64,000 nt of DNA from contig OZ024740.1 of assembly GCA_964016885.1 (NCBI GenBank), positions 106,020,001 to 106,084,000 on the forward strand. Direction: 5' to 3'. The translations under genes and the position numbers were made by a program. Below are positions 6,818 through 59,900 of the stretch, piece by piece. Source of the DNA: Eledone cirrhosa (Eukaryota). The notes beneath the pieces were generated by a model, which made no database searches, was not told the origin of the DNA, and saw only the letters and a list, made by a program, of their open reading frames with translations. Positions within the stretch are counted from its first letter, which is position 1; the number at the start of each line of letters is the position of its first letter.

Positions 6818-7075
<258 letters not shown>

Positions 7076-24200: not shown

Positions 24201-24312
24201 GCATCCATTACACCCTGTAAATACTGAACTGTTGTTCACAACATCAATATATATGTATCTATATGATTGTTCAGTTAAATAGGAGGTTAATTATATGTAC
24301 AAACATTGATAA

Positions 24313-29261: not shown

Positions 29262-29298
<37 letters not shown>

Positions 29299-29302
29299 TT
29301 AC

Positions 29303-29345
<43 letters not shown>

Positions 29346-32300
29346 GCTGTTATTCCTTGAATCTCAGTCATTGATGTTGGTTAACTGGAAAGTCCGTTGG
29401 AATGAATATCAAGCCACTACCTGCAGCCTCAGATATTCAGGACGTATCGGAGGGTTCTTGCTGTTCCAAGCAAGCATGCCTTTTGAAGCGTTCCAAAAAG
29501 CGTGAAGGGGCCGATTTTCTTTAACCATCCCTGGAAACTTTTGGAGATAGTCCCCAGTGCGCCTATGACAATCGGGATCACTTTGACTTCATGGCAGTTC
29601 CAAATCCTTTTCACCTCCCACTTTAGGTCCTGGTATCGGTTAATTTTCTCCCTCTCCTTCTCTTGCACTCTCGTGTCGAAAGGGCAGGCCACATCCACAA
29701 TCAGTCACGATCTTTTTTCTTTGTCCACAACCACCAGGTCAGGTCTATTGTGTTCCAGTTTTTTGTCCGTCTGTATCCTAAAATCCCACAGCACTTTCAC
29801 CTGATTGTTCTCCATCACCGCCTCTGGCCTATGCTCATACCATTTCTCAGAATGTGGTAAATTGTTTACTTTGCACAGATGCCAGTGGATCACCCTGCCC
29901 ATCACATCGTGTCTCCAGCCCTTACAGTGGGTCTGGGCTAGGTGTTTACACTCGGACACAATGTGAGCCACAGTCTCCTCTCTCTCTACACAGATCCTGC
30001 ACAGTGGGCTAGCCTCCTACTTGTAAATATGGTGCTTCAACCACTTCGTTTTGAGGGCCTGCTCCTGCGCAGCCATTAGCATTCCTTCTGTAGCCTTTTT
30101 GAGGTCTCCTCTTCTCAACCAGTTCCATGTCTGTGGATCTCTAAATTCAGTTTTCTCAAAGAAGGTACTATGAAGGGATTTTCCCTTAAGGCTGCTCTTC
30201 CTCCTTGATGTTATTTCCTCCTTGGATATCCCCTGGCCTACTGTCCCCTCCTTCAGTACAGTTCTGAGCATTGGCTCCTTACTATAGGTCACGTATTTGT
30301 ATAGGTTGTTTTTTTCCATCTGAACACAGTCCTCTATGCTGATAAGACCTCTTCCACCCTCAGATCTCCTTAGGTAGAGTCTATCGACATCACTCCTCTT
30401 GTGGAACATGTTGTAGATAGTCAATAGCTTCCTAGTCTTCCTATCCATTTCTTTTTGTTCAGCAACATTCCATCTCAGAATTCCCGCACTGTACCTAATA
30501 ATAGACACAGCTCGGGAATTTACTGTGCTTATGGCATTTCTGCTGTTCAGATGTGACTTCAATACGCTCCTTACTCTCCGAATGTATTCAGTTCTTAACA
30601 ATTCCTTCATTTTTTTGTTCTTTATGCCATCAGCCTCCAGAACGCCCAAATACTTGTATCCTTCCTCAGAGTCAATTTCCTTTATCATCTCACCTGTTGG
30701 TATCTGGATCCCGTTACTTCTGCTCAACCTACCCCTCCTCATCACAATGACTCCACATTTACTAATACCAAACTGCATACATATATCACTGCTGAAAATA
30801 CGGACAGTGTCAACAAGCACATCCAACTCCTTCTCACTTTTCCCGAAGAGCTTAAGATCGTCCATGAAGAGGAGGTGATTGATGGTAAGCTCTCCCTTTC
30901 CCAACTTGTATCCTGCTCTCACTTTTCGCAGCATAATGGTCAAGGGCATCAGGGCAAGGACAAACAACAGAGGGGACAGACTATCTCCCTGGAAGATACC
31001 TCTCTTGATCTTCACGCTTCCCAAGGATACTCCAGTTGATGTCAACTCTGTCTCCCAGGACCCCATACTCCTGCCCAGCAACTGTCTGATGTTATCTGCC
31101 ACCCTGAAGATCTCCAGGCTTTTGGTGATCCAAGAATGAGGCACCATGTCAAATGCCTTTCTGTAGTCTATCCATCCCATGGCAAGATCAGTGTGTCTCC
31201 TCCTGCAATTCCCCATTACCATCTTATCAATAAGTAACTGGTCCTTTGTACCACCTGACTTCTTTCGGTATCCTTTCTGTTCGTCCGGTAACAAGTTGTT
31301 TGTGTGGAGGTGATGGTAGATTTCCTCAGACACAATGCTCGTCAACAGTTTCCACATTACGGACAGACATGTGATAGGTCTATAGTTGGTAACATCATTA
31401 CCCTTGATTCGGTCTTTCATTATCAGAACTGTGGTACCTTTTGTCAACCACTCTGGCACCTCACCCGACACCAAGCAGTCATTGAACATGGCCGTCAGCT
31501 TCGGGTGGAGGGATGTTAAATTTTTAATCCAATACCCATGCACACCATCTGGGCCTGGTGATTTCCAGTTGGTTAGTTTTTTGGCCTGCCCCTTAAGAGT
31601 TTCAACTGTGATACTCAAATCAGTTTGTTGGTGTGCCTGCTCACCGATCTCCCTCTTTACTGTCTCAATCCACCCTGCCTGGACATTATGTCTAACATCC
31701 AGCTCCCATATTCCTCTCCAGAATGTTTTAGTTTGCTCCGCCCCAGGGATCAAGTCGTTGCCTCTTTCTTTCCCCTCAAGCTGTCCAAACAGCATCTTCT
31801 GGTTGTTGTCGAACATGCGGTTCTGTTTATACTGACTGACTCTGTTCTCGTATCGCCTGATTTTTGCACTCTTTGCTACAATGCGTTGCTTCAGTTCCTC
31901 TATGATAATATTTAGCTTTTTCCTCCTAGTTTTGTACTTTATTTCCAGTCTATTTTTAGTGCCTATGTTTTTTAGTGTCCCATTCAGTAGTGACTCAAGC
32001 TTTCCTATGTCATTTCCCATTTCCCCGATTTGACCACTCAGTCGTTTCTTCCACCACGGCTCTGCTCTTTCTTGTCTGTTGTTTCCTCTCGCTTTTATAC
32101 CAAGTAGTTTCCTCACCGTATTTGCTGTTGCTTTGAGGATATTGTTGCACTGGTGAAGGCTCCTCGCCTCAAGGTATGGGATGACTTTGTTTACCTTAGC
32201 TGTTGTTTCTTTTAACTTTTTCCTGTCTACAAATCTTAGGTTCATAGGTCTCCCACTATCATTGTTCAATTCATCTACCACTAAATTTAGGATGTCAACC

Positions 32301-33881
32301 GAATCTTGTCCTAGCCCGTCAGCATTCATCTCCTCAGTGGCCGTATCTCTGTTCCAGATATTATTTATCTCAGTATTCAGATCATTGTCTGCTTCGGGTG
32401 GTTCCTCCGTTCTCAGGACCTCTTCACCTTCATTTCCCACTGGCTCGCTTGTCTGGCATACTACACCCGCCATCTCCAAGCCATTCTCTCTGCTCAGTTC
32501 CTCCAGTTCCAGCTCGCTTATCCACCCATTAGTTCTTATTACCCAAGCCTGCCCGGCCAATTTTTGTTCATCTAATTTAAATAGACCAATCTCGTTCCAG
32601 ATGTTATGCATCCGTCTCCTGTAGCCCCTCTCCTTGGGGTTACTTTTCAGGTAACATTGCATAACAGTTCTATTCAATTCTTTCGTCCAGTTGGTTCTGG
32701 CCCCTTTCCTTCTTCTTCTTCCTCCAACATCAGCAGTATTTGGTTGACAGTCAGGTTCCTGCTGCTGAGCCAGGGGGCACCTGTTGTGTGAGAGTCTGTC
32801 ACATGACGTTCTAGTCTCCATTTCACCGTTATTCGAACTGTTTATGTTCGATATTTAAACACTCTTATCGAGGATTGGCGAATGTATGGTTACATAGCCA
32901 TCTGTGGATTCGCCGTTCCACTTGGCCCTTGTGTGGCATTATCACCACGCTGTATACGAACACACATAAACAAACAAACACACAGGCAGAAAGGGCCCCA
33001 AAAATGAATAAGCATAAGTTTCATTGTAATGTAGTGTTCGAATGTCTGACTTAGTTTTTGTTTTTTTAGTTTTAGTTTCCCCCCCCTCTTCTCTGTCCGT
33101 CCGCCTGCTTCTCTCTTCATTCTTATTTTCTTTACGTTTTTTGTTTTTTTTTGTTTTTGTTTTTCTCGTTTTTTGCTGTTGTTGCTGTGTTGCTTTGGTT
33201 TTGTTGTTTGTTTTTTCTTTTTTCTTTTGAGTCTATCTATATATTTTGATGCCTTCCTCTTTTTTAGTAGTAGGAATTCTATAATGTGGTGGCAGCAGCC
33301 ATCTGGAGAAGTGGATGACTGGCGGCGGTAGCGATACTGAGACAGTGGTGGTGGTGATGTCGATACCGAGGCAATGGTGGTGGTGATGTGGTCGTATTAC
33401 TGTAGTGATGGTGTTGTAGCGGTGGTAGCAGTGAAAGAGTGAAGGAGTGGTGGCGGCGGTGATGGGATAGTGGTGGTAATGATGGCAGTAGTGAGCGGTG
33501 GTGGTGGTGAAATTGCCGTTATCTGGCTGCTGTGTTTAGTGTACACAGGTGATGAGGTGGGTGGTGTATCTAGTTTCTGGTGTTGGTGAGTTTGGCTGTT
33601 CTATATAGTGTAGACAGAGGAGAGGAGGGGGGGGGTTCTTCTTCCATTTATAGCCATTTTCTTTTTTGGATATACAGTGTACAATACAAAGTTGAATATT
33701 TGAATATTTGAGCCCTATAACAATATATTTTGGGTCCGAATTTTTTTGGGGGCTCAAGCCGGGTGCTTTACGTAGCATTTGTACTAAGAGTTGTTATTTC
33801 ACAAATGATTTAAATATGTTAAAAATTCAAAACTTACGGGAGCGATTTCATGACCTCCGTCACCTCGTGCGTCTTCTTCCC
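29346..33881 (-). mobile_element. R4/Dong-like family B, copy B1, apparently full length
   Basis: Single ORF 32821 to 29429: WTKELN..MQCY..RGYRRRM..W N-terminus, RT LFMDD, CRIC..HIVSEC, RPDLVV..VDVACP..EKINRY. Stops at 30017 and 29705. About 1 kb of 5' leader; (TAA)n on both sides. Confidence 0.93.
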
Positions 33882-33910
33882 TTATTATTATTATTATTAT
33901 TATTATTATT

Positions 33911-34685
33911 GTTGTTATTCCTTGAATCTCAGTCATTGATGTTGGTTAACTGGAAAGTCCGTTGGAATGAATATCAAGCCACTACCTGCAGCCTCAGATA
34001 TTCAGGACGTATCGGAGGGTTCTTGCTGTTCCAAGCAAGCATGCCTTTTGAAGCGTTCCAAAAAGCGTGAAGGGGCCGATTTTCTTTAACCATCCCTGGA
34101 AACTTTTGGAGATAGTCCCCAGTGCGCCTATGACAATCGGGATCATTTTGACTTCATGGCAGTTCCAAATCCTTTTCACCTCCCACTTTAGGTCCTGGTA
34201 TCGGTTAATTTTCTCCCTCTCCTTCTCTTGCACTCTCGTGTCGAACGGGCAGGCCACATCCACAATCAGACACGATCTTTTTTCTTTGTCCACAACCACC
34301 AGGTCAGGTCTATTGTGTTCCAGTTTTTTGTCTGTCTGTATCCTAAAATCCCACAGCACCTTCACCTGATTGTTCTCCATCACCGCCTCCGGCCTATGCT
34401 CATACCATTTCTCAGAATGTGGTAAATTGTTTACTTTGCACAGGTGCCAGTGGATCACCCTGCCCATCACATCGTGTCTCCAGCCCTTATAGTGGGTCTG
34501 GGCTAGGTGTTTACACTCGGACACAATGTGAGCCACAGTCTCCTCTCTCTCTCCACAGATCCTGCACAGTGGGCTAGCCTCCTACTTGTAAATATGGTGC
34601 TTCAACCACTTCGTTTTGAGGGCCTGCTCCTGCGCAGCCATTATCATTCCTTCTGTAGCCTTTTTGAGGTCTCCTCTTCTCAACC

Positions 34686-34688
<3 letters not shown>
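33911..34688 (-). mobile_element. Family B, copy B2 (5'-truncated)
   Basis: 3' ~780 bp nearly identical to B1; (TAA)n flanks. Confidence 0.92.
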
Positions 34689-34730
<42 letters not shown>

Positions 34731-34743
34731 TATTATTATTATT

Positions 34744-36467
34744 GTTCTTTGAGTCTCAGTCATTAATGTTAGTTAACTGGAAAGTTTGTTGAAATGAATA
34801 TCAAGCCACTACCTGCAGCATCAGATATTCAGGACGTATCGGAGGGTTCTTGCTGTTCCCAGCAAGCATCCCTTTTGAAGTGTTCCAAAAAGCGGGGCGG
34901 GGCCAATTTTCTTTAACCATCCCTGGACACTTTTTGAGATAGTACCTAGTGCGCCTATGACAATCGGGACGACTCTGACTTCATGGCAGTTCCAAATCCT
35001 TTTTACCTCCCACTTTAAGTCTTGGTATCGGTTAATTTTCTCCCTCTCCTTTTCTTGCACTCTCGTGTCAAATGGGCAGGCTACATCTACAATCAGGCAT
35101 GATCTTTTTTCCTTGTCCAAAACCACCAGGTCAGGCCTATTGTGTTCCAGTTTCTTATCCGTCTGTATCCTAAAATTCCATAGCACCTTCACCTGATCGT
35201 TTTCTATCACCGACTCTGGATTATGCCCATACCACTTCTCAGAATGTGGTAAATTGTTTACTTTGCATAGGTGCCAGTGGATCACCCTGCCCATCACATC
35301 ATGTCTCCAGCCTCTATAGTGAATCTGGGCTAGGTGTTTACACTCGGATACAATGTGAGCCACAGTCTCCTCTCTTTCTCTCCATCTCTCCACAGATCCT
35401 ACAGTGGGATAGCCTCCACCTTGTAAATATGGTGTTTCACCGACTTCGTTTTAAGTGCCTGCTCTTGCGCAGCCATTAGCATTCCTTCTGTAGCCTTTTT
35501 AAGGTCTCCTCTTTTCAACCAGTTCCATATCTGTGGATCTCTGAATTCAGTTTTCTCAAAGAAGGTACTATAAAGGCATATTTCATCAAGGTTGGTCTTC
35601 CTCCTTGTTGTTATTTCCTCCTTGGACACCCCCTGGTCTATTGTTCTCTCCTTCAGTACAATTCTGAGCATTGTCACGTATTTGTGCAGGTTGTTTTTCT
35701 CGATCTTAACACAGTCTTCTATGCTGATAAGACGTCTTCCACCTTCAGATCTCTTTATGTAGAGTCTATCGACATCACTCCTCTTGTGGAACATGCTGTA
35801 GATAGTCAACAGCTTCCTAGTCTTCCTATCCATTTCTTTTTGTTCAGCAACATTCCATTTCAGAATTCCCGCACTGTACCTAATAATAGACAAAGCTCGG
35901 GAATTCACTGCACTTATGATATTCCTATTATTTAGATGTGATTTTAATACGCTCCTTACCCTCCTAATGTACTCAGATCTTATCAATTCCTTCATTGTTT
36001 TGCTTTTGATGTCATCTGCCTCCAGAACACCTAAATATGTGTATCCTTCTTCAGTGTCAATTTCCTTTATCATCTCACCTGTTGGTACCTGGATTCCGTT
36101 GCTTCTGCTCAATTTACTCCTCTTCATCACTAGAACTCCAACTTATTAATACCAAATTGCATACATATATCACTGCTGAAAATACGGACAGTATCAACAA
36201 GCACATCCAACTCCTTCTCACTTTTCCCAAAGAGTTTAAGATCGTCCATGAAGAGGAGGTGATTGATGGTAAGCTCTCCCTTTCCCAACTTGTATCCTGC
36301 TCTCACTTTTCGCAATATAACAGTCAGAAGTATCACGGCAAGGACAAACAGCAGAGGGGACAAACTATCTCCCTGGAAGATACCTCTCTTGATCTTCACG
36401 CCTCCCAGGGATTCTCCACCTGATGTTAACTCTGTTTTCCAGGACTTCATACTTTTGCTCAACAACT
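34744..36467 (-). mobile_element. Family B, copy B3 (diverged subfamily, 5'-truncated)
   Basis: ORF pieces 36130-36465, 35399-36130 and 34821-35393. Confidence 0.92.
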
Positions 36468-39400
36468 AATAGCTAATTCACCACTGCACCAAGCAGCTGA
36501 AAGCCTTTCTCACAAATTAACACCTCACACCGACACCACCATTGTAAATGATTATACGTCTGCCAACACAAACAATTTAAGCACTAGCAATATTTTAAAT
36601 TTGTCTCAGGCAGACATTCATTTCCCGCCATTACCAATGACTGCAGGTGTTAAAGCCGCCACCACCACCACCACCGCGACAACCCCCCCCCCCCACCACC
36701 ACCACCACCACCACCGCGACAACAGAAACAAAAGGAAAAAATAAATCAACTCGTGATGTCGAAATATTTTCAACCAAAATGGACTCTCCCAAACCGAACT
36801 TCACTGACGTCACCACCACCACAACTGAAACTAAAATTAATAATAACAAAAATAACGATAGCAACAACAACAACAATGACATTAAAAAAACCACCCTGAG
36901 TTTTGCCAGAGTAGCAAAACAGTGCGAAGCATTTACGGTAACTCAGGAGGAATTAGAAAATGCCAAAAAAATGGTAAAGAAAGATGGGTACAGGGTGAGC
37001 CTCACCCCCCACCTAATAAAATGGAGCATCGGCGAATAACCCACATCAGACGTGGGCAGAAGTATCGAACCGTGGACCTGTTCTTTGAAACACCAGAGGA
37101 GGCTAGAGAACACTCCATGGCCCCATTAAGAAGTGACGACTTCACACTCGTCCCAAGCGATTGTGGCCAGACACTCGTAAAGATCAGGGTGACCTACGTT
37201 CCACCGGCCATCGAAATTCATTGGCTAATAGCGGCCGTCCTCGCCAGCATCGAAGCCAACACAAAGATAATAGCAATAGCAAAAGAAAAGCAGGAGAACT
37301 GGTCCGGATCTGGGATGGAGTTCCTGATCCAAGCGGACCAAAAAAGCATTGAGGAGATCCCAGAGGTAATAGACCTCACTGACGGCAGCCACCTCACCGT
37401 AACTGTCGAGGGCAGAAGGCCTAGGTGTGTCGTTTGTGGTGAAGGAACCCACCTAAGGGTTTTCTGCCCTCAGGCTAAAAGGTTGAGCCCACCTCTCCTA
37501 CCCACCGCAGTGACACAACCATCAACACCACCAGTAGCAGAGATGGCAGCAACAACTGTAGCAGCAACAACAGAAGCAACTATAACAGCAACAACCCCAG
37601 CAACACTAGCAAAACCAACACCACCACCAGCAGCAAAACCAACACCACCACCACCCAACGCTTCAGAACTAGCACCAGCGCCTACACCATCCACCACGCC
37701 ACAACCAAAACTAACGCCTGTGGAGGATTTTTCACTCCCCGGCCTATCACAACTGGAGACAGATTGTGACGACGAGGAGTGGGAAACGGTATCAGGAAAA
37801 AAGAAGAAAAGAAACCAAAAAAGAAAAAATTCTCTTCCTTCCCCCTCCAAAAACAAAATACAGAGGGAAACGAATAAATTAACAAAGAAAAAAGTTAGGA
37901 CAGATATGCCACCATCCACACCAGCATCACCAACCCCATCAACCCAAACACCAACACCATCACCATCATTAACCCCAACACCACCATCACCTACACCACA
38001 AAAGTCACCAAAATGCGAAACAGAAACAAACCCACAACAAACGCAAACAAAACAAAACAACCAAAACGATGCACACTACACAGCATTAAATTTGAACAAC
38101 AACCAATTATTACACTACATCCAACACAACACCAGCATCACAGACAAAGACTACACAACAACCCAAAAATTCACACCACTTCCACACATACAAATCACTC
38201 GCATCACACAGAAAACGTACATGAGACTAAAACAAAAATTCCCCAAAGACTTCGGAGACTTCCGACAAGCACTCTCCAGGAGGATTTATAAGGACATCCT
38301 TCCTGAGGAGGCCACAAGCAGTGAAAAGGATGGAAAAACCGTCCTTCCTCTACGAGAAGTAAGGTAAGTGGTCTTTCCCATCTTTTCCACTCCTTTTCAA
38401 CATGACCTCACTCAGAATAGGCAGCATAAATGCGCGTGGATTGGGGTCGTCATGGAAGCAGGGCCACCTGCTCAACGACCTCAGGTCACTAAACATAGAT
38501 GTAGTGGCCATCAGCAAGACCAGAATCTCCAAACCACGGGCCTTCGCACCGATCTTCGGCGGCTACGATGTGTACGCATCTCCCAGCCGTCCGGGATCGG
38601 GGGGAGGAGTTGCTGTGCTTTTTCGCAGAGGTTTGGATCTTGCCGTACGGGCCATCTTCCTGGACCCAGAAGGTAAGTTGGTGGTGCTGGACGTGACTAG
38701 CGGAGACGGGCAAGCTTTCAGGTTAGTGGCCGTCTATGCCCCGACAGGAGCAGTGCGGCCTGATTTCTTGCGGCGTCTAGAGACCTTTCTTGGAACGTCC
38801 CGCTCTTTAGTGTTAGTAGGCGATTGGAACGGGATCTTAGATGCACGCTGGTATTGTGTGGGATTAGTGGATAGGGAAGGAGGGTGCAAGAGTCTCACCA
38901 ACCTGCTCAGGCGTTTTGAACTGTCTGACAGGTACCGAATGGATTTCCCGAATGTACCAATGTGGACTTGGACAAATCGCATAGGGTCATCCAGATCATA
39001 TCTAGATAGAGTATTTTGTAGGGAAATAGATAGGTCTAGCATAGGCTGTCCACAATTCAAGATAGTCAGCTACACGGACCACAAATTCGTGATCTGTGTG
39101 CTTGACTTAGATAGGCTTCATAGACGAGGACCCGGCTACTAGAAGCTAAACGCGTCCTTACCAGCGCGCAAGGCCTACAGAGACCGGATTAGCGAACTAG
39201 TTAAGCGGGCGTTGACGGGGGCCATCGTCAACTACAAGTGGTGGTTTTCTCTGAAAAAAACAATTAGAATAGAGTCCATTATGTTTAGTAAGGCTTTAGC
39301 AATAGAGAAAAATAAAGCAGAGGGAGAATTAGTTAGAAAATTAGACGAGGCGCTTAGCAAAGGCATCGCGACCGACGTACTTGCGGCGAAATTGGCCCTT

Positions 39401-42065: not shown

Positions 42066-42066
<1 letters not shown>
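36468..42066 (+). mobile_element. Tx1/L1-clade APE non-LTR retrotransposon, copy C1 (lacks 5' UTR)
   Basis: ORF1 remnant with a CCHC knuckle. ORF2 38402-41821: SINARG, VGDWNG, SYLDRV, TDH (APE); KSPGLDGL, KAFDRV, RQGCP, AYADD (RT); CPRC..ETVLHALVQC. Stops at 39140 and 41258. Ends AATAAA then (TTA)n. Confidence 0.92.
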
Positions 42067-42107
<41 letters not shown>

Positions 42108-42108
<1 letters not shown>

Positions 42109-42359
42109 GTTCTTTGAGTCTCGGTCATTGATGTTATTTAACTGGAAAGTTTGTTGAAATGAATATCAAGCCGCTACCTGCAGCCTCAGAGATTCACGGC
42201 GTATCGGAGGGTTCTTGCTGTTCCCAGCAAGCATGTCTTTTGAAATGTTCCAAAAAACGAGGTTGGACTAATCTTCTTTAACCATCCTTGGAAACTCTTT
42301 GAGATAGTACCTAGTGCGCCTATGACAATCGGGACGAACATGATCTCATGGCAATTCAA
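42108..42359 (-). mobile_element. Family B, copy B4 (~250-bp 3' stub)
   Basis: VPIVIGALGTISK..LLGTARTLRY plus the 3' UTR. Confidence 0.88.
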
Positions 42360-42612: not shown

Positions 42613-42646
<34 letters not shown>

Positions 42647-42651
42647 GTTAT

Positions 42652-47676: not shown

Positions 47677-47740
<64 letters not shown>

Positions 47741-50700
47741 GGCGACCTACGTAGGAAATCGTATTATCGTGAGCTCCGCAAAGGTTTGTTATTTCCGTTT
47801 GTTTAAAAATTGCCATTTATGGAAAATTTTATTGTAAACTGTTTATAAGCACACATACATTGTTTTCCGAAAAGGACACCCAAAAAGATTGGGGCCTTGT
47901 GCCCAAAATTTTAACTTTTATTATTATCCAAAAATTTCTTTGAAAAAAATGGCTAATTCCCCTCTGCACGAAGCAGCTGAAAGCCTTCCTCACAAAATAA
48001 CACCTCACACCGACACCACCATTGTAAATGTTACTACGTTTGCCAACACAAAAAAAAATATAAGCAGTAGCAATATTTTAAATTTGTCTCAGGCAGACAT
48101 TCATTTCCCGCCATTACCAATGACTGCAGGTGTTAAACCCTCCACCACCACCACCACCGCGACAACCACCATCACCACCACCACCGCGACAACAGAAACA
48201 AAAGAAGAAAAAAATAAATTAACTCGTGACGTCGAAATGAAATCAAGCAAAATGGACTCTTCCCCACCAAAGACAACTGACGTCACCACCAGCACAACTG
48301 AAAATAAAATTAATATTAACACAAATAACGATAGCAACAACAACAACAATGACATTATAAAACCGACCCTCAGTTTCGCCATCGTAGCAAAACAATTCGA
48401 AGCGTTCACGGTAACTCAAGAAGATTTAGAAAATGCCAAACAAATGGTAAAGAAAGATGGGTACAGGGTCAGCCTCACCCCCCCCCCCCCCCCCACACCT
48501 AATAAAATGGAGCATCGGCGCCTGTGCACCGTGTCGTATAGAACAATAAATGTAAAATCGCGCCGAGTGGAACAGGCATCCGAGTCCCAAATCCAAAAAG
48601 CTTTGGGACATGTGTGGGCAAGAAAAACCCACATCAGACGTGGGCAAAAGTATGGAACCGTGGATGTGTTCTTTGAAACACCAGAGGAGGCTAGAGAACA
48701 CTCCATGGCCCCATTAAAAAGTGACGACTTCACACTCGTCCCAAGCTATTGTGGCCAGAGACTCGTAAAGATCAGGGTGACCCACGTTCCACCGGCCATC
48801 GAAATTCCCTGGCTAATAGCGGCTGTCATCGCCGGCATCGAGGCCAACACGAGAATAATAACAATAGCAAAAGAAAAGCAGGAAAACTGGTCCGGATCTG
48901 GGATGGAGCTCCTGATCCAAGCGGACCAAAAAAGCATTGAGGAGATCCCAGAGGTAATAGACCTCACTGACGGCAGCCACCTCACGGTAATTGTCGAGGG
49001 CAGAAGACCTAGGTGTGTCGTTTGTGGTGAAGGAACCCACCTAAGGGCTTTCTGCCCTCAGGCTAAAAGGTTGAGGCCACCTCTCCTACCCACCCCAGTG
49101 ACACAACCATCAACACCACCAGTAGCAGAGATGCCAGCAACAACTGTAGCAGCAACAACAGAAGCAACTATAACAGCAACAACCCCAGCAACAGTAGCAA
49201 AACCAACACCACTACCACCACCAGCAAAACGAACACCACCACCACCCAACGCTTCAGAACAAGCACCAGCGCCTACACCATCCACCACACCACAACCAAA
49301 ACTAACGGCTGTGGAGGATTTTCCACTCCCCGGCCTATCACAACTGGAGACAGATTGTGACGACGAGGAGTGGGAAATGATATCCGGAAAAAAAAAAAGA
49401 AACCAAAAAAGAAAAAATTCTCTTCCTTCCCCCTCCAAAAACAAAATACAGAGGGAAACAAATAAACTAAGAAACAAAAAAGTTAGGACACATATGCCAC
49501 CATCCACACCAGCATCACCAACCCCATCAACCCAAACACCAACACCATCACCATCATTATCCCCAGCACCACTATCACCTACACCACAAAAGTCACCAAA
49601 ATACGAAACAGAAACAAACCCACAACAAACGCAAACAAAACAAAACAACCAAAACGATACACACTACACAGCATTAAATTTGAACAACAAGCAATTATTA
49701 CACTACATCCAACACAACACCAGCATCACAGAAAAAGACTACACAACAACCCCAAAATTCACACCACCTCCACACATACAAATCACTCGCATCACACAGA
49801 AAACGTACATGACACTAAAACAAAAATTCCCCAAAGACATCGGAGACTTCCGACAAGCACTCTCCAGGAGGATTTATAAGGACATCCTTCCTGAGGAGGC
49901 CACAAGCAGTGAAAAGGATGGCAAAGCCGTCCTTCCCCTACGAGAAGTAAGGTAAGTGGTCTTTCCCATCTTTTCCACTCCTTTTCAACATGACCTCACT
50001 CAGAATAGGCAGCATAAATGCGCGTGGCTTGGGGTCGTCATGGAAGCAGGGCCACCTGCTCAACGACCTCAGGTCACTAAACATAGATGTAGTGGCCATC
50101 AGCGAGACCAGAATCTCCGAAGCACAGGCTTTCGCACCGATCTTCGGCGGCTACGATGTGTACGCATCTCCCAGCCGTCCGGGATCGGGGGGAGGAGTTG
50201 CTGTGCTTTTGAGGAGAGGTTTGGATCTTGCCATACGGGCCATCTTCCTGGACCCAGAAGGTAAGTTGGTGGTGCTGGACGTGACCAGCGGAGACGGGCA
50301 AGCTTTCAGGTTAGTGGCCGTCTATGCCCCGACAGGAGCAGGGCGGCCTGATTTCTTCCGGCGTCTGGAGACCTTTCTTGGAACGTCCCGCTCTTTAGTG
50401 TTAGTGGGCGACTGGAACGGGATCTTAGATGCACGCTGGGATTGTGTGGGATTAGTGGATAGGGAAGGAGGGTGCAAGAGTCTCACCAACCTGCTCAGAC
50501 GTTTTGAACTGTCTGACAGGTACCGAATGGATTTCCCGAATGTACCAATGTGGACTTGGACAAATCGCATAGGGTCATCCAGATCATATCTAGATAGAGT
50601 ATTTTGTAGGGAAATAGATAGGTCTAGCATAGGCTGTCCACAATTCAAGATAGTCAGCTACACGGACCACAAATTCGTGATCTGTGTGCTTGACTTAGAT

Positions 50701-53651
50701 AGGCTTCATAGACGAGGACCCGGCTACTGGAAGTTAAACGCGTCCTTACCAGCGCGCAAGGCCTACAGAGACCGGATTAGCGAACTAGTTAAGCGGGCGT
50801 TGACGGGGGCCATCGTCAACAACAAGTGGTGGTTTGCTCTGAAAAGAGCAATTAGAATAGAGTCCATTAGGTTTAGTAAGACTTTAGCAATAGAGAAAAA
50901 TAGAGCATAGGGAGAATTAGTTAGAAAATTAGATGAGGCGCTTAGCAAAGGCATCGCGACCGACGTGCTTGCGGCGAAATTGGGCCTTGACCAATTCTTC
51001 AATGCAAAGTACGAAGGCTGCGTTGTCAGAGCTAGGGTGCGTGCTCTCAGACACGAGGGGACGAAAGCCGTTCAATGGGCCCGAGTGGCGGAGGCGCGTC
51101 GTGGCAACAAAGCCACGATCCGGTCTTTGGTGGACCACGACGGGCGCATGCTACTCGATCCCGGGCAAATGTGTGAAGCTTTTCAGCAACACTTCGCTCA
51201 ACTGTTCGGGGGCAGTGGCGGGCCGGATCGAGGGATGGACTTTAGTGTCTACCTCGACGGACTGCCGCGGCTTTCGGCCACTGAGGCGGAGTGTTGCGAA
51301 AAACCGATAACAACCGCTGAAGTACGGGATGCAATGACTAGTTGCACAAGGGGTAAATCGCCTGGTTTGGATGGTCTGCCCTATGAACTTTACGTACAAA
51401 TGCCAAACTTGTTCGGAGGCCTCTTGGCGGACGTCTACTGCAACTGGCAACAGAATGGGAGAATTCCCAGCTCTGTGAGCCGAGGAGCGGTGGCGCTGCT
51501 GAGAAAGGATCCGAACAAGGGGGATAACATAGATAATTTTAGGCCCACAACTCTGCTAAACACAGAGTTCAAGATTTTGGCCAAGGTGCTAGCAAAGAGG
51601 TTGGCGCTTGTCGTTGGTGGTCTGGTGGGAGAGGCACAGACATGCGCCATTCCCGACAGATCCATCCACGACAACCTCCACCTCATGCGATACATCGTAG
51701 AGAGGGTAGCTAGGGAACCTGGCACGGGTGGGTCTTTGATCAATTTAGATCAGTCGAAAGCCTTCGATAGGGTCGACCATCGTTACCTAGCGGCAGTCCT
51801 GAGGGCGGCTGGCTTTGGGCCCGTCTTCAGAGGCTGGATCGCTGCCATGCACAGCGACATCTGCTCTGTAGTGACAGTGAACGGTCACCTTTCGGAACCG
51901 TTCAACATCATGCGCTCGGTCCGCCAAGGATGTCCCCTCTCGTCCCTATTGTACGTATTGACTCTCGAACCATTACTGCACAAACTGGAGACGTTGAGGG
52001 GGGTCCCGCGCGAACTAGGATGCGGAAGATCCGTGTCAGCATATGCCGACGATGTCACCGTAGTGGTGTCGAACGCCAAACACATCGAGGCGATCGGCAC
52101 TACACTAAGAGAATACGAAGCGGTGACAGGAGCAATGATCAACCAGGAAAAGTCAGTGGGCCTGCAGCTCGGCACCTGGAGAGGCAGGTCCATGCCGTCC
52201 AACAGCGTCGTCGGGCGCTGGACGGACGGACCGGTTAAATTGCTAGGGGTCTGGTTCGGTCCAGACCTCCAGACGGACAAAAACTGGGACGAGGTGACGA
52301 GCAGGGTGGCTTCTCTCACCCAGAAATGGGCCGAGAGGAAGCTATCACTGAAAGGTCGAGCGGAGGTGGCGAATGCGTACATCGCATCCGTCATCTACTA
52401 CCGCCTGACCGTCGTACCTTGTTCTAAGCCCCGCCTGACTGCGCTGGAGCGTTTGCTCTTTCGCTTCTTGTGGAAGGGACGCGCTCCGATGGTCAGGCGG
52501 TCCATCTGCTGTCAACACCCGCTACGTGGAGGGCTGGGCATGCCGTGGCTGATGATGCGCAGACACGCGCTCAGGCTACGACATCTCCATCTCTTCCTCG
52601 ACGGTGATCAGGTGTGGTCGCCGTTTGCAAGACACGTTTTTCCCTAGCTCGTCTCCTTGACGGAGCTGCAGTCCTGGGTCAAGCGAAGACCGAGAGGGAG
52701 CGCTTGGAGACTGGAATGTCTTCAGGCGCTCACAGCCCTCGACCAATCGGGCAATGTGATCGGTGGAAACTCCACCTTGGCGTTCTATAGGGGATTAGTG
52801 GAGGGGAAGAGCGACGACGTACTTGGAGAAACTCTAGGCGTCGACTAAAATCAACTAGCCAATCTCTTCGGAAGGACTTTCGGGCCGGGGCCTATGGACA
52901 ACTTCCAGAAATCCCTGGCCTGGCAGTGCTACCGAGGAGCTTTGCCAGTTTGGGATAAACTCTACAGGCATGGAGGTGCCGTCAGCCGGACATGTCCGAG
53001 ATGCGCGCAGGGCGACGAAACCGTCCTGCACGCACTCGTCCGGTGTCCGAGCATTGCTGACTTGTGGGTTTATGTCGAACACCTGCTGTCACGTGTAGGA
53101 CGGATCCAGCTATCAGCTGAGTCCATCGTGAGGATTGCCCCGCCCCCTTCCTTTAGCCTGGAAGGGCAGGCAGTTTTTATCTGTCTGGTGGCCATGGCGA
53201 AAGAGATAGTATGGTGGACACGTTTGAAAGGTCTGAAGACGAGCACTTACCTCTTCGGTGATGCCCTGATTAACTTTTTCAAATTTCATTTGAAAAGGAA
53301 AATCAGAGTAGAGAGGGAAGTGCTCTCTTCCCAGCATTTTGTTGAAAGATGGGTGAGAGAAGCAAGTATGGCCCGAATGAATGGGCCTTCTCTGAGTATG
53401 TGTCTGTAAATTAAAGGTGGAAAACTGGGAGAGGGCACTTGCCCTGGTGGTCAGGGCCACTGTGGTCTTTTAATGGGCTTTCTCCACAAATGTCCCTTGG
53501 AAGTCTCCCCCCTATTGGGGAATTTTTCTTTGTTATTTTATTTCAACCTCTGTTTTTTTACACGCAGAAATGCCCATTTGTGCCGTCCTGTATTGTCCTG
53601 TACTGTCCTTAATGTCTACTTTATGTGAACCCTTGTGGTTAATAAAGAAAA

Positions 53652-53652
<1 letters not shown>
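47741..53652 (+). mobile_element. Tx1/L1-clade element, copy C2, full length
   Basis: Starts GGCGACCTACGTAGG directly after (TTA)n. ORF2 49990-53409 has three in-frame stops (50908, 52645, 52846). (TTA)n tail. Confidence 0.93.
47949..49955 (+). CDS. ORF1 (gag-like) of C2, open
   Basis: Starts MANSP. Globular region followed by CVVCGEGTHLRAFC (CX2CX4HX4C), Pro/Thr-rich segments and a basic KKKRNQKRK patch. Confidence 0.85.
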   Translation: MANSPLHEAAESLPHKITPHTDTTIVNVTTFANTKKNISSSNILNLSQADIHFPPLPMTAGVKPSTTTTTATTTITTTTATTETKEEKNKLTRDVEMKSSKMDSSPPKTTDVTTSTTENKININTNNDSNNNNNDIIKPTLSFAIVAKQFEAFTVTQEDLENAKQMVKKDGYRVSLTPPPPPTPNKMEHRRLCTVSYRTINVKSRRVEQASESQIQKALGHVWARKTHIRRGQKYGTVDVFFETPEEAREHSMAPLKSDDFTLVPSYCGQRLVKIRVTHVPPAIEIPWLIAAVIAGIEANTRIITIAKEKQENWSGSGMELLIQADQKSIEEIPEVIDLTDGSHLTVIVEGRRPRCVVCGEGTHLRAFCPQAKRLRPPLLPTPVTQPSTPPVAEMPATTVAATTEATITATTPATVAKPTPLPPPAKRTPPPPNASEQAPAPTPSTTPQPKLTAVEDFPLPGLSQLETDCDDEEWEMISGKKKRNQKRKNSLPSPSKNKIQRETNKLRNKKVRTHMPPSTPASPTPSTQTPTPSPSLSPAPLSPTPQKSPKYETETNPQQTQTKQNNQNDTHYTALNLNNKQLLHYIQHNTSITEKDYTTTPKFTPPPHIQITRITQKTYMTLKQKFPKDIGDFRQALSRRIYKDILPEEATSSEKDGKAVLPLREVR

Positions 53653-53703
<51 letters not shown>

Positions 53704-56700
53704 GGCGACCTACGTAGGAAATCGTATCATCTTGAGCTCCGCAAAGGTTTGTTGTTTTCGTTTGTTTAAAATTGCCATTTATGGAAAACTTTTGTTAACT
53801 ATTTTTAAAGTCACAAAATATGCTTTCGGAAAAGGACAATAAAAAAGATCGGGGCCTTGAGCCCAAAATTTAAACTTTTATAATTATCAAACAAAAGATT
53901 TATTTGAATAAATCATGGATGACTCACAGCTACACCAAGTAGCTGAGAGCATTCCTCACAAACTAACACCTCACACCAACACCACCATTGTATATATTAC
54001 TACGTTTGCCAACACTAAAAATATAAACAGTAGCAATAATTTAAATGTGTCTCATGCAGACATTCATTTCCCGCCATTACCAATGACTGCAGGTGTTGAA
54101 GCCCCCCCCCCCCCCCCTCCGCCACCAACACAGCGACAACAGAAACAAAAGAAAAAATAAATTATCGCGTGACATCGAAATGGATTCACCCAGAATGGAC
54201 TCTTCCACACCGAACACCACTGACGCTACAACCACCCCAACTGAAACTAAAAATAACAATAACAAAAGTAACAATAACAACAGCAACAACAACAATGAGA
54301 ATAACAACTTCGTGTCTTTTGCCAAAGCAGCTAAAACATGCGAAACAATCCAGGTAACTCAGGAGGAACTAGATGAAGCCAAGAAAATGGTAAAGAAAGA
54401 TGGGTATAGGGTCAGCCTCACCCCACTCCCCACCCCCACCAAATAAAATGAAGCATCGGCGCCAATGCCCCGTGTCTTATCGGACGATTAACATAAAATT
54501 GCGCCGAGTTGAACGGACATCCGAGTCCCAAATCCAAAAAGCTTTGGGACATGTGTGGGCAAAAAAAACGACATCAGACGTGGGCAGAAATATGGAACCG
54601 TAGACGTGTTCTTTGGAACACCACAGGAGGCCAGAGAACACTCCATGGCCCCATTAAGAAGTGACGACTTCACACTCGTCCCAAGCTATTGTGGCTAGAA
54701 ACTCGTGAAGATCAGAGTGACCCACGTGCCACCGGCCATCGAAATTCCCTGGGTAATGGCTGCCGTCCTTGCCGGCATCGAGGCAACACCAAGATAATTG
54801 AAATAGCTAAAGAAAAGCAGGAGAACTGGTCCGGATCTGGGATGGAGCTCCTGATCTAAGCGGACCAAAAAAGCATTGACGAGATCCCAGAGGTAATAGA
54901 CCTCACTGACGGCAGCCACCTCACCGTAATCGTTGAGGGCAGAAGGCCTAACTGTGTCGTTTGTGGTGAAGGAACCCACCTAAGGGCTTTCTGCCCTCAG
55001 GCTAAAAGGTTGAGGCCACCTTTCTTACCCACCCCAGTGACTCAACCATCAACACCACCAGCAGCAGAAATGGTAGAAACAACTGTAGCAGCAACAACAG
55101 ATGTAACTGTAACAGCAACAACCCTAGCAACAGTAGAAAAACCAACACCACCACCACCCAACGCCCCAGAACTAGCACCAGCGCCTACACCATCCACCAC
55201 GCCACAACCAAAACCAACGCCTGTGGAGGATTTTCCACTCCCCGACCTATCGCAACTGGAGACAGATTGTGACGATGATGATTGGGAAACGGTATCAGGA
55301 AAAAAGAAAAAAAGAAAAAGAAGCCAAAAAAAGAAACAATCCTCTTCTTTCCCCCTCCAAAAACAAAATACAGAGGGAAACAAATAAACTATCAAACAAA
55401 AAAGTTAGGACAGATATGCCACCATCCACACCAGCATCACCAACCCCATCACCACAAACACAACACAATCACCATCATTAACCCCAACACCACCAATACC
55501 ACAAAAGTCACCAAAAAGCGAAACAGAAACAAGCCCACAACAAACGCAAACAAAACAAAACGACCAAAACGATACACACCACACAGCATTAAATTTGAAC
55601 AACAACCGGTGGATTGGCAGTATTGGTAGAGTGTCGGATGCCATGCTTTGGCGCATAGAGTTACGTTCCTTGCCATTCTGAGTTTAAATCCCGCCGAGGA
55701 TAAAATAAAGTACCAGTAATACACTGGGTAATTGCTGGCCTTGTGCCTAACGTAGAAACAATTAAATTTGAACAACAACCAATTATTACACTACATCCAA
55801 CACAACACCAGCATCTCAGAAAAAGACTACACAACACCCCAAAATTTCACACCACCTCCACACATACAAATCACTCACATCACACAGATAACATAGATGC
55901 CACTAAAACAAAAATTCCCCAAAGACATCGGGGACTTCCGACAAGCACTCTCCAGGAGGATTTATAAGGACATCCTTCCGGAGGAGGCCACAAGCAGTGG
56001 AAAGGATGGAGAAACCATCCTTCCTCTACGAGAAGTAAGGTAAGTGGTCTTTCCCATCTTTTCCACTCCATTTCAACATGACCTCACTCAGAATAGGCAG
56101 CATAAGTGCGCGTGGCTTGGGGTCATCATGGAAGCAGGGCCACCTGCTCAACGACTTCAGGTTACTAAACATAGATGTAGTGGCCATCAACGAGACCAGA
56201 ATCTCCGAGGCACGGGCCTTCGCACCGATCTTCGGCGGCTACGATGTGTACGCATCTCCCAGCCGTCCTGGATCGGGCGGAGGAGTTGCTGTGCTTTTTT
56301 GGAGAGGTTTGGATCTCACCATGCGAGCCATCTTCCTGGACACAGAAGGTAAGTTGGTGATGCTGGACGTGACCAGTGGAGACGGGCAAGCTTTCAGGCT
56401 AGTGGCCGCCTATGCCCCGACAGGAGCAGAGAGGCCTCATTTCTACCGGTGTCTGGAGATCTTTCTTGGAACGTCCCGCTCTTTAGTGTTAGTGGGCGCC
56501 TGGAACGGGATCTTAGATGCACGCTGGGACTGTGTGGGATTAGCGGATAGGGGAGGAGGGTGCAAGAGCGTCACCAACCTGACAGGTACCGATTGGATTT
56601 CCCGAATGTGCCAATGTGGACATGGACAAATCGTATCGGGTCATCCAGATCATATCTATATAGAGTATTTTGTAGGGAAATAGATAGGTCTAGCATAGGC

Positions 56701-59700
56701 TGTCCACAATTCAAGATAGACAGCTACACGGACCACAAATTCCTGATCTGTGTGCTTGACTTAGATAGGCTTCATAGACGAGTACCCGGCTACTGGAAGC
56801 TAAACGCGTCCGTACCAGCGCGCAAAGCCTGCAGAGACCGGATTAGCGAACTAATTAAGCGGGCGTTGATGGGGGCCATCGTCAACTACAAGTGGTGGTT
56901 TGCTCTGAAAAGATCGATTAGAATAGAGTCCATTAGGTTTAGTAAGGCTTTAGCAATAGAGAAAAATAGACCAGAGGGAGAATTAGTTAGAAAATTAGAC
57001 GATGCGCTTAGCAAATGCATCGCGATCGACGTACTTGCGCCGAAATTGGCCCTTGACCAATTCTTAAATGCAAGGCACGAAGGCTGCGTTGTCAGAGCTA
57101 GGGTGCGTGCTCTCAGACACGAGGGGACGAGAACCGTTCAATGGGCCCGAGTGGCGGAGGCGCGTCGTGGCAACAAAGCCACAATCCGGTCTTTGGTGGA
57201 CCACGACCGGCGCATGCTACTCGATCCCGGGCAAATGTGTGAAGCTTTTCAGCGACACTTCGATCAGCTGTTCGGGGGCAGCGGCGGGGCGGGTCGAGGG
57301 ATGGACTTTCGTGTCTACCTCGACGGACTGCCGCGGCTTTTGGCCACTGAGGCGGAGTGTTGCGAAAAGCCGATAACAGCCGCTGAAGTACGGGAGGCAA
57401 TGACTAGCTGCAAAAGGGGTAAATCGCCTGGTTTAGATGGTCTGCCCTATGGAATTTACGTACAGATTCCAGACTTGTTCGGAGGCCTCTTGGCGGACGT
57501 CTACTGCAACTGGCAACAAAACGGGATAATTTCCCAGCTCTGTGAGCCGAGGAGCTGTGGCGCTGCTGAGAAAGGATCTGAACAAGGGGGATAACATAGA
57601 TAATTTTAGGCCCATAAGTCTGCTAAACACAGAGTTCAAGATTTTGGCCAGGGTGCTAGCAAAGAGGTTGGCGCTTGTCGTTGATGGTCTGGTGGGAGAG
57701 GCGCAGACATGCGCCATTCCCGACAGATCCATCCACCACAACCTCCACCTCATGCGATACATCGTAGAGAGGTTAGCTAGGGAACCTGGCACGGGAGGGT
57801 CCTTGATCAATTTAGATCAGTCGAAAGCTTTCGATAGGGTCGACCATCGTTACCTAGCGGCAGTCCTGAGGGCGGCTGGCTTTGGGCCCGTCTTCAGAGG
57901 CTGGATCGCTGCTATGCACAGCGACATCTGCTCTGTGGTGAGAGTGAACGGTCACCTTTCTGAACCGTTCAACATCATGCGCTCGGTCCTCCAAGGATGT
58001 CCCCTCTCGTCGCTCTTGTACGTATTGACTCTCGAGCCATTACTGCACAAACTGGAGACGTTGAGGGGGGTCCCACGCGAACTAGGATGTGGAAGATCCG
58101 TGTCAGCATATACGGACGATGTCACCGTAGTGGTGTCGAACGCCAAACACATCGAGGCGATCGGCACTACACTAAGAGAATACGAAGCGGTGACAGGAGC
58201 AATGATCAACCAGGAAAAGTCGGTGGGCCTGCAGCTCGGCACCTGGATAGGCAGGTCCATGCCGTCCAACGGTGTCGTCGGGCGCTGGACGGACGGAACG
58301 GTTAAATTGTTAGGGGTCTGTTTAGTCCGGACCTCCAGACGGACAAAAACTGGGACCAGGTGACGAGCAGGGTGGCTTCTCTCACCCGGAAGAGAGGAAG
58401 CTATCCCTGAAAGGTTGAGCGGAGGTGGCTACAGCATACATCGCGTCCGTCATCTACTACCGCCTGACCGTCGTACCTTGTCCTAAGCCTCGCCTGACTA
58501 CGCTGGAGCGTTTGCTCTTTCGCTTTTTGTGGAAGGGACACGCTCCGATGGTCAGGCGGTCCATCTGCTGTCAATACCCGCTACGTGGAGGGCTGGGCAT
58601 GCCGTGGCTAATGATACGCAGACACGCGCTCAGGCTACGACATCTCCACCTCTTGCTCGACGGTGATCAGGTGTGGTCGCCGTTTGCTAGACGCGTCTTT
58701 CCCCAGCTCATCTTCTTGACGGAGCTGCAGTCCTGGGTCAAGTGAAGACTGAGAGGGAGCGCTTGGAGACTGGAATGTCTTCAGGCGCTCACAAGCCTCG
58801 ACCAATCGGGCAATGTGATCGGTGAAACTCCACCTTGGCGTTCTATAGAGGATTAGTGGAGGGGAAGAGCGACGACGTACTTGGGGAAACTCTAGGCGTC
58901 GACGAAAATCAACTAGCCAATCTCTTTGGAAGAACTTTCGGGCCGGGACCTATGGACAACTTCCAGAAATCCCTGGCCTGGCAGTGCTACCGGGGTGCTT
59001 TGCCAGTTCAGGATAAACTCTACAGGCATGGAAGTGCCGTCAGTCGGGCATGTCCGAGATGCGCGCAGGGCGACGAAACCGTCCTGCACGCACTCGTCCA
59101 GTGTCCGAGCGTTGCTGTCTTATGGGTTTATGTCGAACACCTGCTGTCGCGTGTAGAACGGATCCGACTGTCAGCTGAGTCCATCGTGAGGATTGCTCCG
59201 CCCTCTTCCTTTAGCCGGGAAGGGTAGGCAGTTTTTATCTGTCTGGTGGCCATGGCGAAAGAGATAGTATGGTGGACGCGTCTGAAAGAGCTGAAGACGA
59301 GCACTTACCACTACGGTGATGCCCTGATTAACTTTTTCCAATTTCATTTGAAAAGGAAAATCAGGGTAGAGGGGGAGGTGCTCTCTTCCCAGCTTTTTGT
59401 TGAAAGATGGGTGAGAGAGGCAAGAATGGCCCGAGTGCGTGGACCTGCTCTGAGTATATGCCTCTAAATTGAAGGTGAAAAACTGGGAGAGGACAATTGC
59501 CCTGGTGGTCAGGGTCACCGTGGCATTTTTTAATGGGCTTTCTCCACGATGGCCCTCGGAACTCTCCCCCCTATTGGGGAATTTTTCATTGTTCTATTAT
59601 TACATCCTCTGTTTTTTTTGTTTTTTACACGCAGAAATGCCCATTTGTACCGTCCTGTATTGTCCTGTACTGTCCTTAGTGTCTACTTTATGTAAACCCT

Positions 59701-59718
59701 TGTGATTAATAAAGAAAG

Positions 59719-59719
<1 letters not shown>
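53704..59719 (+). mobile_element. Tx1/L1-clade element, copy C3, full length, older and frameshifted
   Basis: Same 5' start GGCGACCTACGTAGG; head-to-tail with C2 across (TTA)n; many frameshifts. Confidence 0.92.
55608..55760 (+). mobile_element. SINE (7777 family, core partly deleted) inserted in C3 ORF1, 20-bp TSD
   Basis: TSD attaaatttgaacaacaacc at 55588-55607 and 55761-55780. Confidence 0.9.
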
Positions 59720-59778
<59 letters not shown>

Positions 59779-59779
59779 A

Positions 59780-59900
59780 AGTTCAAATACCGCCGAGGTT
59801 AACTTTGCCTTTCATCCTTACGGTGTCGATAAAATAAAGTACCAGTAATGTACTGGGTAATTGCTGGTCCTGTGCCTAAAATAGAAACAATTATTATTAT
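59780..59900 (+). mobile_element. 5'-truncated SINE in the (TTA)n tail of C3
   Basis: Runs from the B box to agaaacaattattatt. Confidence 0.85.

What the first reader, a model, noticed from the sequence alone, without database searches (positions are those of the whole stretch)
29294..59900. 30-kb retrotransposon array on (AAT)n: RLE and APE families share one target in opposite polarity
Seen: five family B copies are all minus and three Tx1-like copies all plus. They are separated by (TTA)n spacers that read the same way on the + strand (29294, 33882, 34689, 42067, 42613, 47677, 53653, 59720). Full-length Tx1-like copies have (TTA)n at both ends. Established: Dong targets (TAA)n, some Tx1 families target other microsatellites, and TRAS/SART use opposite strands of telomeric repeats. 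Inference: a (TTA)n-specific Tx1 family, possibly undescribed, has converged on Dong's target, and each insertion's tail renews the target so the array propagates itself.
Basis: partly seen in the sequence, partly recalled or inferred. Interest (0 to 1): 0.75.

Follow-up and report, generated by a model that had tools for sequence, protein, structure and literature searches.

The report
Two retrotransposon clades share ATT repeats
Two unrelated kinds of jumping gene sit back to back in the same three-letter ATT/AAT repeat, facing opposite ways, here and at many other places in this animal genome, likely because their enzymes cut opposite strands of the repeat and each insertion leaves fresh repeat on both sides for the next one.

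Summary
Confirmed and genome-wide. Window 29294-59902 is a gap-free chain of six Dong/R4-type (RLE) copies, all minus, three Tx1-like (APE) copies, all plus, and SINEs, joined by (TTA)n. The repeat is a real target, not just a tail. 69 of 79 young Tx copies have an ATT tract at the 5' junction, including 6 of 16 truncated ones; the other 10 are fused to a neighbouring element. 37 of 40 Dong copies show the mirror pattern. Empty paralogous sites carry 3-11 ATT units, while a filled one has 10 + 14. A sister family of the same clade prefers (TATC)n and differs in the endonuclease hairpin loop. A SINE with a Tx-like 3' end inserts at bare ATTAT, so the enzyme's motif may be short. Dong on (TAA)n is published; I found no ATT-specific Tx1 family in nine searches (Repbase not searchable). 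Shared targets and opposite polarity have precedents (Keno/Utopia, TRAS/SART). Named Tx1-clade membership was not shown. The 30-kb size is not exceptional. The scan noted this pattern at least 8 times elsewhere in the same genome.

The parts
29294..29345 (+). (TTA)n tract, 13 perfect units, left end of the array; tail side of B1
29346..33881 (-). B1: full-length Dong/R4-type RLE element, ORF broken (945-aa open stretch 30017-32854)
   Evidence: 97.7% over the whole length to a full-length genomic copy; RVT_1
33882..33908 (+). (TTA)9 at the 5' end of B1 and the tail of B2
33909..34689 (-). B2: 5'-truncated Dong copy (CCHC + RLE domain), very young
   Evidence: 99.1%; translation
34690..34741 (+). 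(TTA)13+4 at the truncation point of B2
34742..36467 (-). B3: older 5'-truncated Dong copy, fused head to head to T1 with no spacer
   Evidence: 88.6%; junction; nearest-neighbour distance 5.6% against 0.9% for T1
36468..42067 (+). T1: Tx1-like APE element lacking its first ~200 bp; ORF2 has in-frame stops
42068..42106 (+). (TTA)13 between the tails of T1 and B4
42107..42378 (-). B4: 272-bp 5'-truncated Dong copy
   Evidence: 83%
42379..42393 (+).
42394..42614 (-). 3' UTR stub of a third RLE family (family C)
   Evidence: 40 scored hits at 92-100% among 1206 candidates; 2 of 2 other copies cut continue into RLE-coding DNA
42615..42644 (+). (TTA)10
42645..47676 (-). B5: near full-length Dong copy with a 441-bp tandem duplication (46627-47509) and a short fold-back at its 5' junction
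43526..43687 (+). SINE copy inside B5 with a 10-bp target duplication
47677..47740 (+). (TTA)20 between the 5' ends of B5 and T2
47741..53653 (+). T2: full-length Tx1-like element, 5913 bp. ORF1 47838-49955 with a CCHC knuckle; ORF2 from 49990 (APE, RT, zf-RVT) with in-frame stops
   Evidence: 99.05% to a genomic copy with an intact 1139-aa ORF2
53654..53703 (+). (TTA)16 between the T2 tail and the T3 head
53704..59720 (+). T3: full-length, older and frameshifted Tx1-like element
   Evidence: 84-93%
55608..55764 (+). SINE copy inside T3 with a 20-bp target duplication that begins ATT
59721..59777 (+). (TTA)9+9
59778..59902 (+). 5'-truncated SINE with (TTA)4 tail, right end of the array

Best explanation
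This is a nested chain of non-LTR retrotransposons in which a Dong/R4-type RLE family (sense strand AAT) and a Tx1-like APE family (sense strand ATT) occupy the same microsatellite in opposite directions, likely because each nicks the strand that can pair with its own RNA tail and primes reverse transcription there. The APE enzyme would nick the AAT strand at an ATAAT motif and the RLE enzyme the ATT strand (inferred). A target duplication of about 13-19 bp plus the copied tail leaves a tract on both sides, so each insertion likely makes two new targets, and chains grow by repeated independent insertions of either family. SINE tails and a tract inside an RTE-type element's 5' region likely seed new chains. 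Later or insertion-linked deletions remove some spacers and fuse neighbours.
For: Shown: Tx 5' junctions on ATT tracts in 63 of 63 full-length and 6 of 16 truncated copies; the other 10 are joined directly to another element; 0 of 79 sit in non-repeat DNA with an ordinary duplication. About ten more truncated Tx neighbours also abut ATT at different truncation points. Dong 5' junctions on the tract in the opposite sense in 37 of 40, 30 of 33 truncated, none reversed. Empty paralogues: of 20 copies of the repeat that flanks L099, 15 are empty with 3-11 ATT units (three of them look like one duplicated locus), 2 hold a Dong tail (minus), 2 a Tx end (plus), 1 a SINE; L099 itself has 10 units left and 14 right. 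An interruption duplicated on both sides of Dong L138 shows a target duplication. SINE duplications are 10-18 bp (11 of 39); TATC-family duplications of 16-19 bp are visible in several of 20 copies; uninterrupted 5' tracts of 57 of 59 regex-scored full-length Tx copies are 6-24 units. A recognised element lies across the 3' tract in 46 of 79 copies in the expected sense (lower bound). Copies in the array are 83-99% identical to young copies, so they arrived at different times.
Against: Which strand is nicked was not measured. 10 of 79 Tx and 3 of 40 Dong copies lack the 5' tract. The samples are the best-scoring, that is youngest, copies and come mostly from contigs C1-C4. The SINE, whose 3' end resembles the Tx end (5-8 of 2000 shuffles reach the score, but the TATC family scores similarly at 13 of 2000), inserts at bare RTTAY sites (36 of 39), so if Tx moves it the enzyme alone does not need a microsatellite. 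One of 79 Tx tails abuts an old Tx relative in the opposite direction (L081). No direct empty allele of a Tx insertion was seen.
Confidence: 0.85

Rival explanations
1. The Tx family inserts at any short ATTAT site, as the SINE does, and its confinement to long tracts and existing arrays comes from survival (insertions elsewhere are removed by selection), not from targeting.
For: SINE copies sit at bare RTTAY sites in 36 of 39 random cases. L1-type endonucleases nick more loosely than they integrate (PMC1950540, abstract and section 23).
Against: 0 of 79 of the youngest copies (97-99% identical) are at non-repeat sites, whereas the TATC sister family of similar size survives with little or no repeat at the 5' junction in 7 of 20 copies.
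Confidence: 0.1
2. The 5' (ATT)n is part of the element's own transcript (read-through from the donor's flank), so there is no target preference.
For: Most young copies are full length (63 of 79) and all of those have the tract.
Against: Copies truncated at unrelated points still abut ATT (L075, L102, L158, L174, L189, L190), and empty paralogous sites already hold the tract.
Confidence: 0.02
3. The two families insert together: their complementary RNA tails pair, or the second-strand end made by one primes the other's RNA, which gives the head-to-head fusions.
For: 7 of 79 Tx copies, plus T1 in the window, are fused head to head to a truncated Dong with no spacer. The tails are complementary.
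Against: In 4 of 8 fused pairs the Dong partner is clearly older (3-6% from its nearest sampled relative against 0.4-0.9% for Tx; depends on sampling). 0 of 40 young Dong copies are fused to Tx. Kilobase internal deletions and Tx-Tx joins are about as common.
Confidence: 0.04
4. The array arose by tandem duplication or unequal crossing over of a few units.
For: One local 441-bp duplication exists inside B5.
Against: Copies differ in family, truncation point and age (83-99%), and match copies elsewhere in the genome as well as or better than each other.
Confidence: 0.02

Closest known systems
Dong (R4 clade; Bombyx mori Dong, DongAg, DongBg, Darwinula Dong1/2)
   Same: Single ORF with RT, CCHC and PD-(D/E)xK-type endonuclease; (TAA)n target (PMC3812793 and PMC7998251, passages). 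Dong-R4 is reported as recently active in Octopus vulgaris (PMC13282606, passages).
   Different: Nothing essential for families A, B and C. Here three families share the tract with an APE lineage.
Microsatellite-specific Tx1 families: Kibi (TC)n, Koshi (TTC)n, crocodilian (TTCC)n/(TTTC)n; Tx1-1_ACar (telomeric repeat)
   Same: APE-RT two-ORF element inserted in a simple repeat in fixed orientation (PMC4494074 passages and section 15; PMC10088271 passages).
   Different: Target is (ATT)n, with a sister family on (TATC)n; neither target was found in the papers searched. Host is likely an octopod (closest named protein from Argonauta hians, 73%).
TRAS and SART in Bombyx telomeric repeats
   Same: Two families insert in one tandem repeat in opposite orientation and form arrays (PMC10088271, passages).
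   Different: Both are R1-clade APE elements at telomeres. Here the partners use unrelated endonucleases and the arrays are interstitial and dispersed.
Keno (Tx1 clade) and Utopia (RLE) in U2 snRNA genes
   Same: An APE and an RLE lineage converge on one multicopy target (PMC4494074 and PMC4640811, passages).
   Different: Insertion destroys a gene copy there, whereas here it leaves a usable tract on both sides. R1/R2 in 28S rDNA is a similar precedent (recalled).

Membership tests
Dong / R4 clade (family B) | One ORF with RT followed by CCHC and restriction-like endonuclease | tested here: met
   Intact 1130-aa ORF in L114 with a CxxC..H..C finger and RPD..D.A.P motif; best solved relatives are R2 proteins
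Dong / R4 clade (family B) | (TAA)n target on both sides, truncated copies included | tested here: met
   37 of 40 5' junctions, 30 of 33 truncated
Dong / R4 clade (family B) | No N-terminal zinc fingers; divergent Myb/SANT domain (PMC7998251) | tested here: inconclusive
   Pfam found no finger in the N-terminal part of window copies; the Myb-like domain was not searched with profile-profile methods
Dong / R4 clade (family B) | RT phylogeny with named R4/Dong references | not testable with these tools
   No named R4 or Dong protein was available
Tx1 clade (APE family) | ORF2 with APE, RT and C-terminal zinc finger, L1 group | tested here: met
   Exo_endo_phos, RVT_1, zf-RVT; intact 1139-aa ORF2; best solved relative human L1 ORF2p, E 1.6e-53, against R2 6e-21
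Tx1 clade (APE family) | ORF1 with CCHC zinc knuckle (feature recalled) | tested here: met
   CxxC-x4-H-x4-C in ORF1 of T1, T2 and the alternative ORF1 of L079
Tx1 clade (APE family) | Target sequence preference (PMC4494074 criterion: more than 20% of flanks) | tested here: met
   69 of 79 5' flanks and all 79 3' flanks
Tx1 clade (APE family) | Groups with named Tx1 families (Tx1L, Keno, Kibi, Koshi) in an RT tree | tested here: inconclusive
   Tree of 34 rows gives a 14-row clade at 100/100 with the Argonauta protein, sister to unnamed ENA proteins; fish and turtle proteins at 37-41% are the nearest named vertebrate hits, but none carries a Tx1 name
SINE as passenger of the Tx lineage | Shared 3' end and shared insertion signature | tested here: inconclusive
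   3'-end scores 20-22 against ATT families (5-8 of 2000 shuffles), 17 against the TATC family (13 of 2000), 10 against Dong (1687 of 2000); ATT tail, same polarity, duplications 10-18 bp

The most novel reading that the evidence does not exclude
An octopod Tx1-type radiation is a natural experiment in how APE elements pick microsatellites. The endonuclease reads only a 5-base motif, set largely by its beta-hairpin loop (TNRIGSS in ATT families, TNHSGQS in TATC families), and pairing of the repeat RNA tail with the nicked strand enforces long tracts. Together with Dong on the other strand, this makes and multiplies most long AAT microsatellites of the genome (5 of 7 tracts of 8 or more units in 400 kb of random DNA are at their junctions), a self-feeding interstitial counterpart of telomeric TRAS/SART arrays.
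Probability: 0.3. Interest if true: 0.7.

Novelty: new variant of a known kind. Interest (0 to 1): 0.52.

Why it matters
It adds two targets, (ATT)n and (TATC)n, to the list for Tx1-like elements, in sister families with intact or near-intact enzymes that differ in the loop known to steer L1 endonuclease. That makes the open question of how APE elements choose microsatellites (called poorly understood in PMC3812793) directly testable by loop swaps. It also explains how a few percent of a 3-Gb genome is laid down as polarised arrays outside genes, and warns that AAT markers in such genomes are often retrotransposon junctions. Convergence on a shared target is itself known, so the surprise is moderate.

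Tried and rejected
Co-insertion of Dong and Tx as the cause of head-to-head fusions: not needed, ages differ in 4 of 8 pairs. L085 as an empty site: the neighbour is another ATT-tailed repeat. The 221-bp piece as host DNA or a 3' transduction: it is a third RLE family's 3' UTR. Tx1-1_ACar as a precedent for ATT: it is telomere-specific. L113, where Dong seemed to face the wrong way: a 5' inversion of a correctly oriented Dong. Four 'opposite' SINE ends were false matches of a weak motif to T-rich flanks. Sequencing runs: no RNA holder listed; laying contigs and RAD reads gave no empty allele and no flank data from other organisms, uninformative. Metagenome locus scan found nothing. ESM Atlas held neither query. 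Rfam gave no match for the SINE, so a tRNA-derived head is unverified. The original Dong paper was not held, Kojima and Fujiwara 2004 and Repbase were not readable, and the supplements of PMC4494074 were not available; these may list an ATT-specific Tx1 family. PMC5786205 and PMC8967140 (passages) say nothing on targets of cephalopod Tx1.
Full report
Setting. The window is G000:C1:106020001-106084000 of a 3.0-Gb genome. The closest named relative of the APE element's RT is a protein of Argonauta hians (73%), so the host is likely an octopod; this is an inference.

Observation. All eight (TTA)n spacers are present. Self-comparison, Pfam and comparison with young genomic copies give, left to right: B1 (full length), B2, B3 (truncated RLE copies, minus), T1 (APE, plus, fused to B3 without spacer), B4, a 221-bp stub of a third RLE family, B5, T2, T3 and a truncated SINE. 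No host DNA is left between 29294 and 59902. Every copy in the window is broken, but intact ORFs exist elsewhere: 1139 aa for the APE family and 1130 aa for family B; the protein searches list many more frames of that length among their 150 best hits. The array members are 83-99% identical to young copies, so they arrived at different times.

Is ATT a target or only a tail? (1) Of the 40 best hits to the Tx 5' end, the 30 cut as loci all follow 6 or more ATT units. (2) I fetched 79 copies chosen by their 3' part: 39 of the 40 hits, leaving out the window's own, and the first 40 hits not already fetched. 63 are full length and all follow an ATT tract. Of 16 truncated copies, 6 abut a tract at unrelated truncation points, 7 are fused head to head to a truncated Dong, 1 joins a Dong through ATTAT only, and 2 are joined to another Tx. 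None lies in non-repeat DNA with an ordinary duplication. (3) Random expectation is 0.09%. (4) L099 sits in a tract inside the 5' region of a multicopy RTE-type element. Of the 20 next-best paralogues fetched (of 40 listed), 15 are empty with 3-11 units, two hold a Dong tail on minus, two a Tx end on plus and one a SINE, while L099 has 10 units left and 14 right. The tract therefore exists before insertion, and both halves remain usable afterwards.

Dong side. Of the first 40 hits after the window's own, 37 have the tract at the 5' junction in the opposite sense (30 of 33 truncated; two full-length copies have a TTC run in between), and none is reversed. L138 duplicates an interruption on both sides, which shows a target duplication. 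Over 159 loci, 265 Tx or Dong end motifs at 349 distinct tracts were in the expected polarity and none opposite; only the 5' junctions among these are independent evidence.

Controls from relatives. The random sample holds Tx relatives at about 70% identity that end in (TATC)n. In 20 such copies, 13 have TATC repeats at the 5' junction and 0 have ATT; several show 16-19-bp duplications that run into non-repeat DNA. In the RT tree (34 rows) ATT-tailed subfamilies lie on both sides of the TATC family within a 100/100 clade that includes the Argonauta protein, which suggests ATT is the older target; two rows have unknown tails and no named Tx1 reference is in the tree. The stretch that aligns with the L1 hairpin loop reads TNRIGSS in 60 ATT-tailed copies and [T/R]NHSGQS in 11 TATC-tailed copies, with ANRSGSS in one more TATC-tailed copy. 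Loop grafts alter L1 endonuclease specificity, yet nicking is looser than integration (PMC1950540, abstract and section 23). This is a correlation between two lineages, not a test.

The SINE. It covers 1.8% of the random sample, ends like the Tx lineage, has an ATT tail and the same polarity, but 36 of 39 copies sit at bare RTTAY sites, 11 with exact duplications of 10-18 bp. If the Tx lineage moves it (inconclusive), the enzyme's motif is short and the LINE's need for long tracts arises after nicking, most simply by tail pairing.

Mechanism. Shown: pre-existing tract, fixed opposite polarity, tract on both sides afterwards, nesting of different ages. From established knowledge: target-primed reverse transcription. 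Inferred: opposite nicked strands, the roles of tail pairing and loop, seeding by SINE tails. A recognised element lies across the 3' tract of 46 of 79 copies (a lower bound). With a continuation chance of 0.6-0.7 per side, chains of nine or more would surround roughly 7-20% of copies (hand calculation), so 30 kb is large but ordinary. In 400 kb of random DNA from C1-C4, family B covers 1.3%, family A 0.6% and all Tx relatives 4.6%, and 5 of 7 tracts of 8 or more units are at Dong or Tx junctions.

Against and rejected. Head-to-head fusions suggested joint insertion, but the Dong partner is older in 4 of 8 pairs and kilobase deletions are common in these copies. The samples favour young copies. 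No expression data and no empty allele were obtained.

Known and new. Dong on (TAA)n is published (PMC3812793, PMC7998251; passages). Published Tx1 targets that I saw are TC, TTC, TTCC, TTTC, U2, transposons and telomeric repeats (PMC4494074 passages and section 15; PMC10088271 passages). Octopus papers list Dong-R4 and L1-Tx1 as abundant or active and give no targets in the passages read (PMC13282606, PMC8967140). Nine searches showed no ATT- or TATC-specific Tx1 family; Repbase, Kojima and Fujiwara 2004 and the supplements of PMC4494074 could not be read. TRAS/SART and Keno/Utopia are precedents for opposite polarity and for APE/RLE convergence. Earlier notes of this scan report the same pattern at least 8 times in this genome; they are not independent support, and one gave the GATA lead that I tested.

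Verdict. Real and well supported; a new variant of a known kind; interest 0.52.

Noticed in passing
window 1-3283 (+) and 3909-6818 (-): Two copies of another Dong-type family (A), 98% identical and inverted to each other, each with the tract in the Dong polarity; a family-B stub and (TTA)18, (TTA)36 follow at 6819-7062.
   Followed up: partly
L113:8539-9870: Dong copy with an inverted 5' segment overlapping the direct part by about 23 bases, the pattern of twin priming known from L1 (recalled), here in an RLE element.
   Followed up: partly
window ~47606-47676: About 30-bp fold-back (inverted duplication) at the 5' junction of B5.
   Followed up: no
window 55608-55764; L160; L187: SINE insertions of different lengths at the same position of Tx ORF1 (about base 1933), probably a hot spot.
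   Followed up: no
L079, L084, L093, L104, L157, L173, L186, L191: A Tx subfamily with a different 5' UTR and ORF1 joined to a nearly identical ORF2, with the same ATT target: ORF1 swapping.
   Followed up: partly
L074-L112, L154-L193: 63 of 79 young Tx copies are full length, unusually many for a LINE, while 33 of 40 Dong copies are truncated.
   Followed up: no
L099, L274-L293: An abundant RTE-type element carries an (ATT)3-11 tract in its 5' region and so spreads landing sites for Dong, Tx and the SINE (5 of 20 paralogues hit).
   Followed up: yes
L136, L145: Full-length Dong 5' ends preceded by expanded (GAA)n runs that extend the element's own first bases.
   Followed up: no
window 6897-7856 and 23470-24207 (-): Degenerate ORFs that look like Penelope-type RT/endonuclease pieces (impression from the translation; no Pfam hit for the second, the first not scanned).
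   Followed up: no
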